From assembly GCF_002113885.1 (NCBI RefSeq), contig NW_018408109.1, forward strand, positions 1,329,396-1,386,222: a stretch of DNA of 56,827 nucleotides, read 5' to 3'. The stretch comes from Mizuhopecten yessoensis. Its lineage: Eukaryota. Made by a program: the position numbers. Positions 18,001-24,000 of the stretch are shown here, piece after piece; position 1 is the first letter of the stretch; each line of letters begins with the position of its first letter.

Positions 18001-21000
18001 ATTCTCTCTCTCCCCTACTCTTTATTTTCGTTGGTGTCTCTCTCCCTAGGCACCCATCTTCGTTTTACCTTATCAAACCAAATATAAACAATCAAACAGA
18101 CAAAACAATGCATAAGTCAGAAAAAGGAAAAAGAGGGGGGAAAAGTAGCTATATTTGTGTTAAGCAACATTCAAAGTTCACCTTAATGAATATGTGAAGA
18201 AATTGGATGGTCAGTGGCACAGTGCATTGGCACACTTGCCTTTTACCAAGGAAACTTGGTTGATTATAAGGCACATCGGTTGATGTTAAGAGTGTCCTTC
18301 CAGAGTTATCAAGGTACAGGTTCAAATCCTGGTCTGGTCATAACATTTTCCATATATATACATGTACATGTATTTACTTTCTTCCGAACTAAATTGCCCA
18401 CATAAGGTAATATAGGGTATTGCGTGCCTTTTGGAAAGAAATCATTGTTAAGGATCTTCTGCACATGTAGATCGAGGGAGCTGGAATATATACAAGGATA
18501 ATCCTGGAGGGGGCTACGGGGCCATAGACCCCTCCATGTTCTAATTTTCTTCAAATTTTACATAGAATGGCCCCTCCTAATTTTGTTATTGACTAAAAAT
18601 TGCTGAAAATTGTCCATTTCTCTCAAATTCCAGGATTTTCCCCGATATATATATATGCATTCTTTGTATATATGTGACAGAACCTGACAGAGACTAGTCA
18701 TTAGCGATGCAGGTTCATAACTGTAGCTTAGTTGGTCAGAGCTTCCGTATTGACTTAAATTACATTCTCCATAAATATACATCACATGTTTGATGCATTG
18801 TCAAAATAAAACGCTCTGACCCTCGTATACATTTTGATAGCTCGCTTGCATGGGTAGGATCTCCTTAATTTATCAACTTGTTGGTCTGCACAAAAGTAAA
18901 ATTGAAGTCAGGAAGTTTTGGGCTATACAAATGAAATTAGGAACATATATATCTATTTGTAAATAGGCATATACTTATACTGAAAATAAACATGTACATG
19001 TAGGTCTGTAAAATACATTAAAATCTCAAGAGCTAATAATTTAAATGAAACTCAATACTAAAAACCATTACTTGCGCTGTTGTTTACATAAACAATTAGT
19101 GGCATGCGAGGTAAGTGTATGTATATGTATGATTGTGTAGCACGCGCCACTATTGACAATGACAGCTTAGCGTACCTAGATACGAACGAGTATCGTGTCA
19201 TGACTGGCCATGACACTTGTTTATACGCCGTAAAATACCTTGTCGGAGTAAACACAGCCTCTGAATCTCCTTTTTGTATCCAACTGACAAACGACACATC
19301 ATGTTAACGGGCAACAAAAGGATATGAAGGGGCGAACCCGCACCGCTACTTTCACACTTTCAGCCATTTTTCACGTTCTTCTATTAATTGGCTGTTTCTT
19401 TAACCTCCCTTTTCAAACGGTAAGCGAAAATAATATCGACAGTCTCAATGTCATGACATTTTTTCGTGAAAATAATCACAATATTTTAAAATGAATTTAT
19501 GAATGTTTCAGCCTGCTGATATTACTTTTTATATGTTAAACACAAACGAAATCATACATGAGGGAGAAAGCCAGTAATATAGAAGAGCACATTAGTTACT
19601 TCCGTAAACAAAAGATCGACAACTGTGTTAACTTCCGATCTTAATAAAGCGCGGGAATTTTGAATGCAGTCAATCCTTTGATCAATCCGCCGCGCAGGAG
19701 TGACTTTTTTTTATACCAATTAAAAAATATAAATTCCAAAACTTTCAAAGACAATGAAGCACCCTTCTAAGATAATGAAGCACCCTTCTAAGATAATGAA
19801 GCACCCTTCTAAGACACTTCATCAGGTGACTTATAACCAACGTTTACATGACAGATTGGCGTGTATATTCTTTTCATTAGAATTGTTTTTAATATACATA
19901 ATTTATTATTTGTAAGGGTGTTGCCCTTGTTCAATAAAAGAAAGCAAACAGTTAAATTATAATTGATATTTATGACAAAATAAATTAATATTTAATTGCC
20001 AAAATGATCGCCTAAACTACATGTACAAATAAAGTTCAAACTCCAGTTCTTTATTTTTTTACAGACATAAAATATAAATACTCTACGTTATGAAATATAA
20101 CTCGGAAACTCAGAAAACTATTCTACGCCTCACTCGATCTGTTTGTCAATGGAAATAATGTCCGATAAATTCTTGCTTTTCTACACTCGGCAGTGCTTGA
20201 AACAGTTTACTGTTACACCTTCAAAAAAACAAATCTTCGCCTCGCTTCGCTCGGCAGTGAAAGTATAATTGTCCCACTCTTACAAAGAAAGAAGTTCTAG
20301 ATTTTTGTTGGCAGAAATTAGTATACATGAAGAACCGCCATTATAATTCTAATATATTAGTACCAGATCAGTGCAAAAATCTGTCTTTTTCTGAGTTTAA
20401 AATGTTTGGCAACACGTAATATTAATTCCTGGGTATAAAATGACATAACTGAAAGTTATCTCTTGCACTTGAAGTATAAATAAACAACGTTCTGGGCAAC
20501 GGGGTCTGACTTTTAGTCTGTTATTCATGTAGAAAGCTTGTCCTAACAAAATTGCTCACTGTCGCTATAGTGTCATTATAAAACCGAGTTTGACACCTTA
20601 ATCATGTAAGAGAATCGTTCATTATCACACTAGTCCTGGGTTCGATTCACAGAAGAAGTTTTTGTAGCAAACAGTGTTTTTACAGTTTCCGACACCCATA
20701 CAGTGAAAAGACAATTGCATAACGTAACTATATGGACAAAATAGAGAAGTCATTTGTGACGTCACATACTAGTTGCCTAGCTGCTTAGCAACCGTCAAAG
20801 GCGGAGATGATCAGTCTCTCCCCTCGTGTTTACGTTTTATATTAAGTCTTAGATTACCATAATGACTATCAGGTCATTCTTGCTATTTGTGGTATTGTTA
20901 AGCGCAATGCTGCAAGGTCCTGCTCAATACCTGGACCTTACATGGTAAAACGTTTGGCCTACACTTTACATATTACATGTACATATGTTTGGCGTTATTT

Positions 21001-24000
21001 CTAAATAACGTGTACAAGTTAAATCAAATGTCTCTATCCAATGTTTGCAAATGTTTAATAATAACTTTGTGGTTTTCTTTTAAGCGTGGAGCCGGAACCT
21101 GGATATGGCCGAAGAGTGTTTCATTATTTCACCGCAACTGAAATTGAGAAAGTATGTCCTACTTCTGCCGATCTGACATGGGTAAGGACTCATATATTAG
21201 TATAATTGTCTGTTCCTTTACACAGTTGAAGATTTTAACTTAATATTTAGTACCGTGTTATAATAAAATAAACTTTGCTGCACATAACACATGTGGGCCT
21301 CAAATCCCATATGTATTTCTTCCACTGGAGATGGATTTACATAAGTTGTAAAACTTGTTTCCAAATCCATTTTCAATAATAGTGTACTGTTTTCCATCAT
21401 ACCGTAAATGAAGAAAGAAAAAAAAAAGAAATACAATTAACCCTAACCCTAACTTTCTTGAATTGACGAATGTGGATCATCAGCTGTTTTAATTAAGTAC
21501 AAAACCCTGGAAATAATCATACTTTAATATATTTCAGCGAATTGGAAAGGAGATATTCTGCACTCTTCTCTGTGTGCTTCTGATGCTTTTGTTGGACTAT
21601 GTGCCGTCGATTGCAAATGGCGCCAAAGTAAGATGGCCAGCCATGGTTTCATTAGTCCGCGAATGGATCAATCGTAAGTAACATAGAGCTCGAGGATTGC
21701 AAAACTGTATGATGTTACAGTATCGGATTTCTGTATGGAATAAGAACTTCATTCATTTCAGCTATTTGTTTTTTTATTTTAGTGTTAAACACATCATCAT
21801 CTTAAAACAGTATCAAGGCACGTGAAAACAAAAGATGCTCCTCCCCGTTATTGAATATCCAATACATTCGGTACAATTTTAATATATGAGCTTTTGAGCT
21901 TTCCTTTTGGATGAACTAAGGAATCGGACGTTGTTTTCGTGATACCGTTTTCTAAATCACTTAAACAGGTCCTGCCCCGTCGTAAAATACATATTTGTGC
22001 TTGGTAAGATCAGTTCCCCTTTTGTAATATACATATGTGTGCTTGAACAGGTCCTGCCCTCTGTCGTTGCATACCTATTGGTGCTTGAACAGTCCAACCC
22101 ATGTTGTAACATACGTGTACATTTTTGTGCTTATACAGGTCCTTCCCGCTGTCGTCACTGCGGTACTGCCCCATGTCAGGTCAAATGGAAATGCTTATGG
22201 AAGACCAAAGGATTTCGTAAGAGGGACAGCGCCAATTTTGTGGAGCGGTCAAAGGCCATGATGGTATTCAACTATGGACTATCGATATCAGTGGAACTGA
22301 CTAAAGAGCTGCCACTGGATGACCTGTTCTTGGAGAGGTGGTTCTGCCAGCGATTTGAGGAGGAGCACATGGTGTTGTTCCCACAGTGTATCCAGCGCCA
22401 TATCAACTACTGGTACCCCGTCCCTCGCTAGGTAGGTAGTTTGTTCGTAAGTTTCTTAAAGCCTATTGTCTCCTGAAAAATAACACGTTTGGAAAGATAT
22501 CGGGGATTAAAGGAGCAATGCATTTTATCAGAATATGTAAACTGTTCTCTTTTTGGTATTGTTTCGAACATGTAACAATTTTGACCGGTACATCTTCACC
22601 AGTGGAAAAAAATGTCTTATCTAATAAAAGTTAAATAATGACTTCAAAATGATTGAAATGTTGCAAAATAATTCGTTAATTTTCTTTTCAGATTCATGGC
22701 ACCAATCATCAGGAAGAACATCGATGAGATGAAAGTCGATTATGGAATGGACAGTGTTGACTTTGTGTGATAAAGTCTTATCGGTTTCACTGATTCGATG
22801 TACATGTATATAATGAAATATTAACTGCTAGTAGTCATATACATGTAGATGGAGTCAATGCTGGCTGTATTTAACTTGTCAGTTATTACTATGTAGAATT
22901 TTTAACTGTTTTAATGGTCAATTATTTACAGAGCCTATGCTGGTCAAATTTACCAATTTATAACCTAGTTTACCCTGCATTGGCCAGTACTGGTCCGATG
23001 TTTTTGTTCTGGACAGTTCATATATGGGTCAATATAGTAAGTCTGTGTACTATTATTGCTACACTGTATACAAAAGTTTGGCTATTTTTGTAATGGACAG
23101 TTGTGTGTTTGGAGATTTTATTTGTGATAAAAAAAAACACGAGAGAAATTAAATATATTATTTATTATTTTCATGTCCTATCGTTTTGCTAATCCTCGAC
23201 TCATCTTACGTTGTAGACTTAGGTCAGAAACTCTTACAGCGATATAACACAGGCAATGGGAATGGTCTTATTCGACACACATGGCGCAATAAGGTCTGAT
23301 GAGCCTGTCTGATCCGACACCCTGTGGGACAACACGTTTGTCAGATTAACTTGTCTAAAACGACACACTGTGGGACACATCATGTTTGTCAGATTAACCT
23401 GGCTAAAACGACACACTGTGGGACACAACATGTTTGTCAGATTAACCTGTCTAAAACGACACACTGTGGGACACAACACGTTTGTCAGGTTAACCTGTCT
23501 AAAACGACACACTGTGGTACACAACACTTTTGTCAGATTAACCTGTCTAAAACGACACACTGTGGGAAACATAACGTTTGTCACATTAGCCTGTCTAAAA
23601 CCACACACTGTGGGACACAACACTTTTGTCAGATTAACCTCTCTAAAACGACACACTGTGGGACACAACACGTTTGTCGGATTAACTTGTCTAAAACGAC
23701 ACACTCTGGGACCCAACACGTTTGTCAGATTAACCTGTCTAAAACGACACACTATGGGACACAACACGTTTGTCAGATTAACCTGTCTAAAACGACCCAC
23801 TCTGGGACACAACATGTTTGTCAGATTAACCTGTCTAAAACGACACACTGTGGGACACATCATGTTTGTCAGATTAACCTGTCTAAAACGACCCACTCTG
23901 GGACACAACATGTTTGTCAGATTAACCTGTCTAAAACGACCCACTCTGGGACACAACATGTTTGTCAGATTAACCTGTCTAAAACGACACACTGCGGCTG

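What the first reader, a model, noticed from the sequence alone, without database searches (positions are those of the whole stretch)
20862..22770. Uncharacterised receptor-like gene: signal peptide, tiny two-Cys ectodomain, one TM, and a P2X7-ballast-like Cys domain
Seen: four phase-compatible exons give a hydrophobic leader, an ectodomain of about 40 aa with two Cys, a TM segment, then CRHCGTAPC...N...R...F and FPQCIQRHINYWYP. Only exon 4 is visible in the ORF track. Established: the P2X7 cytoplasmic ballast is a Zn- and guanine-nucleotide-binding domain ending in an LPxCxxxxIRxxFP-type motif, and related domains occur in invertebrate proteins. Inference: this may be a new single-pass membrane architecture for that domain.
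Basis: partly seen in the sequence, partly recalled or inferred. Interest (0 to 1): 0.65.

Follow-up and report, generated by a model that had tools for sequence, protein, structure and literature searches.

The report
Small orphan single-pass membrane protein gene
A compact four-exon gene model for a roughly 200-residue single-pass membrane protein holds up on sequence grounds, but its cysteine-rich tail resembles the P2X7 "ballast" only at the level of a few motifs, so that link stays unproven.

Summary
Four exons (20862-20944, 21085-21181, 21538-21673, 22139-22431) with canonical GT/AG sites join in phase to 609 nt, or 202 codons plus stop. Exon GC is 43-51% against 29-37% in the introns. 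This was the only chain of four or more exons my scan found on either strand; 3 of 60 random surrogates gave one. Read exon by exon, the product has a signal-peptide-like leader, an outside stub of about 44 aa with two Cys, one hydrophobic helix and a basic tail of about 117 aa.

The ballast assignment is not established. Pfam gave 0 families, even at E<=10. PDB sequence searches never returned P2X7. The Atlas gave nothing above 0.77. The single-sequence AlphaFold model was unusable at pLDDT 43.5. Two of the three published Zn-cysteine clusters are absent. However, 9 of 12 published conserved positions in the ballast's C-terminal half line up if two insertions are allowed, which shuffles rarely reach.

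Verdict: probably a real, lineage-restricted type I membrane protein with an orphan Cys/His-rich tail. It may be a reduced ballast relative. Homologue searches and RNA-seq were unavailable.

The parts
20757..20764 (.). Palindromic TGACGTCA (CRE-like) site about 100 nt upstream of the ATG; possible promoter element
   Evidence: 4 such sites in the window against 0.52 expected. Its function is inferred, not tested.
20862..20944 (+). Exon 1: ATG plus 27 codons and 2 bases; signal-peptide-like leader (Arg at residue 4, 13-residue hydrophobic core, G-P-A before the likely cleavage point)
   Evidence: GC 0.434 against 0.286 in the following intron. The cleavage site is inferred from the -3/-1 rule; SignalP was not available.
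21085..21181 (+). Exon 2: completes a split Cys codon, then 32 polar codons with one more Cys; the short extracellular stub
   Evidence: Acceptor has a pyrimidine tract; donor is GTAAGG. GC 0.474.
21538..21673 (+). Exon 3: hydrophobic helix (19-mer KD 2.17, two Cys and one Asp inside) followed by a basic juxtamembrane stretch
   Evidence: 62 of 2020 window ORFs carry a 19-mer with KD>=2.0. Donor is GTAAGT, phase 1.
21674..22138 (+). Intron 3, containing a diverged direct duplication that includes the exon-4 acceptor
   Evidence: 21960-22067 against 22042-22155, 72% identity; the 18-nt unit occurs 3 times, at 21960, 22042 and 22130; the copies offer alternative acceptors only for the weaker phase-0 donor at 21628.
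22139..22431 (+). Exon 4: 96 full codons plus stop; basic Cys/His-rich cytoplasmic domain (Cys 4, 7, 12, 18, 69, 83; His 6, 76, 87; 16 K+R against 10 D+E) ending in FPQCIQRHINYWYPVPR
   Evidence: GC 0.512. No Pfam, PDB or Atlas match. Partial ZCD motif match.
22623..22628 (+). AATAAA, likely polyadenylation signal 192 nt after the stop
   Evidence: the only AATAAA on the + strand in 22432-23000.

Best explanation
The locus is most likely a real, compact four-exon gene for a 202-residue type I membrane protein. Shown from sequence: the reading frame, splice sites, phases, GC contrast and hydrophobic segments. Inferred: a cleavable signal peptide (cut after about residue 21) sends the N-terminus outside, leaving a stub of about 44 residues whose two Cys probably form one disulfide. 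That stub is too small to be a ligand-binding receptor on its own, so the protein is more likely an accessory or anchoring subunit. One helix (about residues 66-85) spans the membrane. The basic tail of about 117 residues stays in the cytoplasm (positive-inside rule). Its exon-4 part is a small Cys/His-rich module. The membrane-near cluster C-x2-C-x4-C-x5-C, set among Lys, Arg and Trp, either binds zinc together with the distal Cys and His or is S-acylated to pin the tail to the inner leaflet. The distal, probably helical part carries a degenerate copy of the last motifs of the ballast/ZCD domain. I treat that domain as an orphan with a possible, unproven, remote relationship to the C-terminal half of the ballast (ZCD/KolX) fold. 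Guanine-nucleotide binding is unlikely to be kept, because only 1 of the 5 rat GDP ligands has an equivalent.
For: Gene model: canonical sites and compatible phases. Exon GC 0.43-0.51 against intron GC 0.29-0.37. The 162-codon ORF is one of 7 of 6931 that long. It is the only chain of four or more exons on either strand of the window, against 3 of 60 surrogates with any. The best donor of exon 3 (GTAAGT, phase 1) fits only the best acceptor at 22139. AATAAA lies 192 nt past the stop and a CRE palindrome about 100 nt upstream. Topology: hydrophobic maxima and charge counts. Orphan status: 0 Pfam families at E<=1 and E<=10. PDB gave only an archaeal Rpo10 at E 0.47-0.65, with 0 hits for the last 34 aa. 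The Atlas best score was 0.77. No paralogue exists in the window. Possible ballast link: the core pattern P-x-C-x4-I-x3-[FY]-P occurs once in 113650 six-frame residues (0.049 expected). Conserved positions match 9 of 12 or 9 of 18. GDP ligands were mapped by hand: only R546 has an equivalent.
Against: The chain-search thresholds were chosen after seeing the model, and 3 of 60 random surrogates pass them. The Atlas recognition value was low, 1611 against the 2300 reached by 91 in 100 proteins of known families. The AlphaFold single-sequence model shows no confident fold (pLDDT 43.5). The acceptor and first codons of exon 4 sit in a diverged duplication, and a phase-0 alternative junction exists. 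Signal peptide, topology, disulfide, zinc binding and acylation are all inferred, not tested. The joined product was not assembled, so no full-length prediction was made.
Confidence: 0.55

Rival explanations
1. One reading: exon 4 is a true, strongly diverged and shortened ballast (ZCD/KolX-type) domain, so this is an independent fusion of that domain to a membrane anchor. In this gene the anchor is a single-pass type I protein rather than a P2X channel.
For: The match to conserved positions of the ballast C-terminal half is collinear: R546, A549, Y/F553, W559, P570, C572, I577 and F/Y581-P582 equivalents. That is 9 of 12 with insertions of 18 and 3 aa, and 0 of 3000 shuffles exceeded 7. The core motif is unique in the window (1 found, 0.049 expected). 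The domain is at the very C-terminus and in one exon, as described for ZCD proteins and P2X7 exon 13. ZCD genes exist in oyster and limpet. Transposon-borne relatives that keep only the C-terminal part and lack most of the seven Cys are reported (PMC9587614, passages).
Against: There is no Pfam hit at all and no P2X7 chain in three PDB searches at E<=10. Neither Atlas call returned a ballast cluster. Cluster 1 (PxWCxCx2C) and cluster 2 (LCCRx3GxC...) have 0 matches, and the strict cluster-3 pattern has 0 matches. R578 is Asn, Y550 is Met, and the protein ends 3 residues after the FP-equivalent, so the Y(S/T)G end is missing. When all 18 specified positions are counted, 25 of 12000 shuffles do as well, which is not significant once many families are considered.
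Confidence: 0.2
2. Not a functional gene: a chance open frame with chance splice-like sites, or a decaying gene or transposon relic.
For: No homologue of any exon was found in any library reachable here. The Atlas recognition value is low. 3 of 60 surrogates give a comparable chain. The 5' end of exon 4 lies in a diverged local duplication. A 20-nt stretch of exon 4 matches the reverse complement of the downstream minisatellite unit.
Against: The GC content steps up at every one of the four exons and down in every intron, which homogeneous surrogates do not reproduce. All six splice sites are canonical and the strongest sites are the phase-compatible ones. Leader, helix and basic tail appear in the order expected of a membrane protein. 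No transposase or repeat copies were found at the locus.
Confidence: 0.2
3. The tail is a zinc bundle related to RNA polymerase subunit Rpo10/RPB10.
For: The only PDB sequence hit is an archaeal Rpo10 (36ro_N). It has two collinear stretches (query 1-9 and 55-83) that place the query's C-x2-C and one later Cys opposite Rpo10 cysteines.
Against: The E-values of 0.65 and 0.47 are chance level. Only one distinct Rpo10 sequence matched at E<=10. Pfam reported no polymerase-subunit family. The spacing between the two stretches is far larger than in the 65-residue chain.
Confidence: 0.03

Closest known systems
P2X7 cytoplasmic ballast / Zn-coordinating cysteine domain (ZCD) proteins of invertebrates (Rump et al. 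2020, PMC7016195; outline, sections 9 and 11 and passages read)
   Same: The module is C-terminal, single-exon, Cys-containing and cytoplasmic. It has equivalents of R546, A549, Y/F553, W559, P570, C572, I577 and F/Y581-P582 in the right order. It lies after a membrane helix, as in P2X7.
   Different: Clusters 1 and 2 of the zinc site are missing, and only one of the seven or eight conserved Cys can be aligned. Two insertions are needed. R578 and Y550 are replaced and the terminal Y(S/T)G is absent. No Pfam or PDB match was found. Invertebrate ZCD proteins are described as lacking transmembrane regions, whereas this model has a leader and a helix.
[quoted passage not shown]
   Same: The paper reports natural relatives that keep the C-terminal part of the ballast fold but lack most of the seven Cys. 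That is the pattern seen here.
   Different: No transposase, terminal repeat or extra copy lies at this locus. The sequences are in supplementary files that were closed, so no direct comparison was possible.
C-cys anchor of P2X7, a palmitoylated juxtamembrane cysteine cluster (as described in PMC7016195)
   Same: A cluster of four Cys among basic and aromatic residues lies on the cytoplasmic side after the helix.
   Different: The sequence and spacing differ, and the cluster starts about 25 residues after the helix. Acylation was not tested.
Rpo10/RPB10 zinc bundle
   Same: There is a weak two-segment resemblance that includes C-x2-C.
   Different: The E-value is about 0.5, the spacing is different, and there is no family-level match.

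Membership tests
P2X7 ballast / ZCD (Pfam P2X7 C-terminal family; accession PF20478 recalled, not returned by any search) | Significant match to the family profile | tested here: not met
   Pfam-A returned 0 families for the 96-aa exon-4 peptide at E<=1. It returned 0 for that peptide and its last 69 aa at E<=10. HMMER filters hide most hits above about E 0.1, so a very weak match cannot be excluded.
P2X7 ballast / ZCD | Sequence similarity to solved P2X7 chains | tested here: not met
   Three phmmer searches of the PDB at E<=10 (96, 69 and 34 aa) returned one Rpo10 sequence or nothing, never P2X7.
P2X7 ballast / ZCD | Cys cluster 1, PxWCxCx2C | tested here: not met
   0 matches in the six-frame window. 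The peptide has P-x-R-C-x2-C-x4-C-x5-C instead.
P2X7 ballast / ZCD | Cys cluster 2, LCCRx3GxCITT(S/T) | tested here: not met
   0 matches. There is no adjacent Cys pair anywhere in the peptide.
P2X7 ballast / ZCD | Cluster 3, (L/I/V)PSC(C/S)x3IRx2(F/Y)Px5Y(S/T)G | tested here: not met
   The strict pattern has 0 matches, while the reduced core P-x-C-x4-I-x3-[FY]-P has 1 match at 22381. By hand, 5 of 12 specified positions are met. The protein ends 3 residues after the FP-equivalent.
P2X7 ballast / ZCD | Conserved positions of the GDP-binding half (R546, A549, Y550, Y/F553, W559, I/V568, P570, C572, R578, F/Y581-P582) | tested here: inconclusive
   9 of 12 match with insertions of 18 and 3 aa, and the shuffle maximum was 7 in 3000. 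9 of 18 match with the full consensus, and 25 of 12000 shuffles reach that. Without gaps only 5 match.
P2X7 ballast / ZCD | GDP ligands of rat P2X7 (R546, H547, R574, R578, K583) | tested here: not met
   Hand mapping gives an equivalent only for R546 (1 of 5). The paper notes that only R546 and R578 are kept in invertebrates; here R578 is Asn.
P2X7 ballast / ZCD | Ballast fold with dinuclear zinc site | not testable with these tools
   The single-sequence AlphaFold2 model has pLDDT 43.5 and pTM 0.30. Foldseek against the PDB gave 1 match at E 6, to ClpC.
P2X7 ballast / ZCD | [quoted passage not shown] | tested here: met
   Exon 4 ends the reading frame at 22431. ZCD is described as always C-terminal.
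Type I single-pass membrane protein | N-terminal cleavable signal peptide | tested here: inconclusive
   Arg at residue 4, an 11-mer with KD 3.01, and Gly/Ala at -3/-1 before residue 22 (read by the -3/-1 rule). No dedicated predictor was available.
Type I single-pass membrane protein | One transmembrane helix with the positive side cytoplasmic | tested here: met
   The 19-mer KD is 2.17 in exon 3, a level reached by 62 of 2020 window ORFs of 19 aa or more at KD>=2.0. Exon 4 has 16 K+R against 10 D+E, and exon 2 has 3 against 5.

The most novel reading that the evidence does not exclude
Exon 4 is a reduced ballast: the C-terminal, nucleotide-site half of a KolX/ZCD domain that has lost the dinuclear zinc clusters. 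It would have been captured as a single exon by a small type I membrane protein gene and sit behind a cysteine cluster that plays the role of the P2X7 C-cys anchor. That would be a second, independent case of tethering this transposon-derived fold to the plasma membrane, in a protostome and without an ion channel.
Probability: 0.15. Interest if true: 0.6.

Novelty: new variant of a known kind. Interest (0 to 1): 0.3.

Why it matters
If the gene is real, it adds one more lineage-restricted small membrane protein to an invertebrate genome, which is ordinary. It would matter more if the tail proves to be a ballast relative. Published surveys describe invertebrate ballast-type proteins as soluble and without transmembrane regions and trace the domain to a transposon protein. 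A membrane-anchored, zinc-cluster-free version would show which half of the fold can stand alone. It would also give a simple, channel-free system to ask what the ballast does at a membrane, which is still unknown for P2X7.

Tried and rejected
- **Structure route.** AlphaFold2 on the exon-4 peptide alone gave pLDDT 43.5. Foldseek against the PDB returned one meaningless match at E 6, so there is no fold evidence either way. The second structure job was not used because no alignment could be built.
- **Atlas.** Two calls gave best scores of 0.77 and 0.76, to unrelated bacterial clusters.
- **Paralogues in the window.** tblastn of each exon peptide found no non-self hit better than E 0.2, apart from the local duplication upstream of exon 4.
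- **Prokaryote genome collection.** 53 pattern matches, none confirmed. This was expected, because the collection holds only bacteria and archaea.
- **Minisatellite origin of the Cys cluster.** The idea that the CRHCGT cluster derives from the downstream 48-bp minisatellite was rejected: 455 of 500 shuffles score as high.
- **Transposon hallmarks.** No flanking inverted repeats of note lie around exon 4.
- **Rest of the kinesin gene.** To see whether the two genes are head to head, I scanned 144 short minus-strand ORFs in 1-20800. 0 of 144 hit any family, so the kinesin 5' end was not located.
- **RNA genes.** No tRNA and no Rfam family in the window.
- **Literature.** One search was swamped by an unspecific term, and one search added nothing beyond PMC9587614.
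- **Joined product.** The 202-residue product was not assembled, searched or folded. Every search was exon by exon.
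Full report
**1. What is there**

I read 20500-23200 and listed all stop-to-stop frames.
- 20862-20944
- 21085-21181
- 21538-21673
- 22139-22431

The ATG at 20862 is the first in its frame, with a stop just upstream (ORF 20853-20948). All three introns (140, 356 and 465 nt) begin with GT and end with AG. The donors read GTAAAA, GTAAGG and GTAAGT, and each acceptor follows a pyrimidine-rich tract. Phases run 0/2/0/1, and the four pieces sum to 609 nt, which is 202 codons plus TAG.

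Every translation, search and fold was exon by exon. No full-length topology prediction or fold was therefore made, and that remains open.

**2. Is it more than chance?**

- Exon 4 lies in a 162-codon open frame, one of 7 of 6931 stop-to-stop frames that long in the window.
- Exon GC is 0.434, 0.474, 0.463 and 0.512, against 0.286, 0.298 and 0.368 for the introns and 0.357 for the window.
- Only 0.3% of all 293-nt windows are as GC-rich as exon 4. About 7% of windows match exons 2 and 3, and 18% match exon 1.
- I scanned both strands for chains of ATG exon, GTAAR donor, pyrimidine-rich acceptor and so on, requiring at least four exons and at least 540 nt of coding sequence. The only hits start at this ATG: two terminal stops, 22431 and a five-exon variant ending at 22634.
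- Of 60 first-order Markov surrogates of the whole window, 3 gave at least one such chain. The thresholds were set after seeing the model, so this is supportive rather than decisive.
- The strongest donor of exon 3 (GTAAGT at 21674, phase 1) fits only the strongest acceptor, at 22139. A weaker phase-0 donor at 21628 could pair with 22009, 22051, 22093 or 22180.
- A single AATAAA lies 192 nt after the stop (22623), and a TGACGTCA palindrome lies about 100 nt before the ATG.
- The finding's end coordinate, 22770, belongs to a 32-codon ORF beyond that AATAAA and is not needed.

**3. The product, piece by piece**

- **Exon 1** has an Arg at position 4, a 13-residue hydrophobic core (best 11-mer Kyte-Doolittle 3.01), then Q-G-P-A. 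By the -3/-1 rule (established knowledge, not a tool) cleavage after residue 21 is plausible. The core is short for a membrane anchor.
- **The split codon** at the first junction reads TG|C, a Cys.
- **Exon 2** adds 32 polar residues with a second Cys, so the outside part is about 44 residues with two Cys.
- **Exon 3** has a 19-mer with KD 2.17; 62 of 2020 window ORFs of 19 aa or more reach 2.0. It is followed by a basic stretch.
- **Exon 4** (96 aa) has Cys at 4, 7, 12, 18, 69 and 83, His at 6, 76 and 87, and 16 K+R against 10 D+E.

The order of leader, stub, helix and basic tail fits a type I membrane protein with a cytoplasmic tail of about 117 residues. The topology is inferred.

**4. Tests of the ballast idea**

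Database and fold tests:
- Pfam-A found nothing for any of the five pieces at E<=1.
- Pfam-A found nothing for the exon-4 peptide or its last 69 residues at E<=10.
- phmmer against all PDB chains at E<=10 returned only an archaeal Rpo10 (E 0.65 and 0.47). It returned nothing for the last 34 residues and never P2X7.
- The ESM Atlas gave nothing above 0.77 overall and 0.76 among named clusters, all bacterial. The recognition value was low, at 1611.
- AlphaFold2 on the single sequence gave pLDDT 43.5. The Foldseek result (one match, E 6) therefore means nothing.

Comparison with the published definition of the domain (Rump et al. 2020, PMC7016195; I read the outline, sections 9 and 11 and passages):
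- Three Cys clusters define the domain: PxWCxCx2C, LCCRx3GxCITT(S/T) and (L/I/V)PSC(C/S)x3IRx2(F/Y)Px5Y(S/T)G.
- The paper also names conserved R546, A549, Y550, Y/F553, W559, I/V568, P570, C572 and R578.
- Strict forms of all three clusters have 0 matches in the six-frame translation.
- The reduced core P-x-C-x4-I-x3-[FY]-P occurs once, in exon 4, against 0.049 expected.
- Anchoring C83 on C572 gives equivalents for P570, I577 and F/Y581-P582. R578 is Asn, and the protein stops three residues later.
- R36, A39 and F43 reproduce the R546, A549, Y/F553 spacing. W67 sits 18 residues further than W559 would.

- The peptide reaches 9 of 12. 3000 shuffles of the same peptide never exceeded 7.
- With all 18 positions of the text counted it is 9 of 18, and 25 of 12000 shuffles do as well.
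- Without gaps the best score is 5 of 12.
- The gap ranges were chosen after seeing the sequence.
- A probability of roughly 1 in 500 to less than 1 in 3000 for one family would not stand out among about 25,000 families. That agrees with the silent Pfam scan.
- Of the five rat GDP ligands, only R546 has an equivalent (hand mapping).

**5. Context from print**

Rump et al. state that invertebrate ZCD proteins are short, have the domain at the C-terminus, lack transmembrane regions, and occur in oyster and limpet.

Kojima and Bao 2022 (PMC9587614, passages only) report three relevant points:
- The KolX protein of Kolobok transposons has the ballast fold.
- P2X7 probably arose by capture of KolX.

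That last class is the nearest described analogue of what exon 4 would be if the resemblance is real. Its sequences, and the alignments of both papers, are in figures and supplementary files that I could not see. They bear directly on the claim. My literature searches found no description of a ballast-type domain on a single-pass membrane protein. Those four searches are the whole basis for that statement.

**6. Surroundings**

- No paralogue of any exon is in the window.
- A diverged direct duplication (21960-22067 against 22042-22155, 72% identity) carries three copies of an 18-nt unit that includes the acceptor of exon 4.
- Upstream on the minus strand, a kinesin motor exon (11409-11903; Pfam Kinesin E 4e-18) is closest to PDB chain 7wrg_A (E 3.2e-27). 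No other kinesin exon was detected (0 of 144 short ORFs).
- Downstream lie a 48-bp minisatellite (23304-23994) and a weak GPCR-like ORF.
- No transposase lies at the locus. A tyrosine-recombinase element lies 16 kb away.

**7. Verdict**

The most likely reading (0.55) is a real, lineage-restricted gene for a small type I membrane protein. Its Cys/His-rich basic tail belongs to no detectable family. The tail probably binds zinc or is acylated near the membrane.

Rival readings:
- A reduced ballast relative: about 0.2.
- Not a functional gene: about 0.2.
- An Rpo10-like zinc bundle: about 0.03.

The organism was not identified, and nothing suggested human sequence.

Noticed in passing
window 22373-22392 versus 23304-23994: A 20-nt stretch of exon 4, the codons of the V-L-F-P-Q-C-I motif, matches the reverse complement of the 48-bp minisatellite unit at 19 of 21 aligned columns. 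0 of 1000 shuffles reach that score, and only 2 of 373 window tiles do. I did not check whether those two tiles are the ones overlapping exon 4. Unexplained; it may be chance.
   Followed up: partly
window 23304-23994: A 48-bp minisatellite with 14.4 copies and 91% matches. It is open in three frames (233-258 codons) and produces spurious Pfam hits such as Bacteriocin_II and Tudor_Coilin.
   Followed up: partly
window 21960-22155: A diverged direct duplication (72% identity, spacing 82-88 nt) repeats the exon-4 acceptor sequence three times. It creates alternative AG sites usable only with a weaker phase-0 donor.
   Followed up: yes
window 11409-11903 (-): A kinesin motor exon covering positions 55-121 of the Pfam model. 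The best PDB match is 7wrg_A at E 3.2e-27, ahead of KIF14, KIF13B and KIF1A. No other exon of this gene was detected.
   Followed up: partly
window 20757-20792: A TGACGTCA palindrome at 20757; there are 4 in the window (the others at 24767, 24798 and 43826) against 0.52 expected. Next to it is a pair of RFX/X-box-like half sites, GTTGCC..AGCAAC, at 20772-20792 with non-canonical spacing (1 found, 0.21 expected). The consensus motifs are recalled. This may be a shared promoter region with the kinesin gene.
   Followed up: partly
window 31914-32198, 42685-43029, 49947-50183 (+): Three ORFs each match GNAT acetyltransferase families (E 1e-7 to 1e-6). They suggest a tandem array of paralogous acetyltransferase genes.
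   Followed up: no
window 37407-39197 (-): A 337-codon ORF with tyrosine-recombinase (phage-integrase type) domains lies next to a 236-codon ORF with a weak GDSL-lipase match. This is probably a mobile element.
   Followed up: no
window 24908-25246 (-): A 113-codon ORF has a weak rhodopsin-type 7TM match (E 4e-4, below the curated cut-off). Adjacent ORFs gave nothing, so it may be a receptor fragment or pseudogene.
   Followed up: partly
window 21438-21453: A short telomere-like run, (TAACCC) x 2.7, lies inside intron 2.
   Followed up: no
window 7212-8087: Weak tblastn hits recur at spacings of about 140-177 nt (7212, 7387, 7527, 7704, 7881, 8058), which suggests a tandem repeat of about 175 bp.
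   Followed up: no
window 35959-36002 and 54707: Runs of N (44 bases and 1 base). They were left as they are.
   Followed up: no
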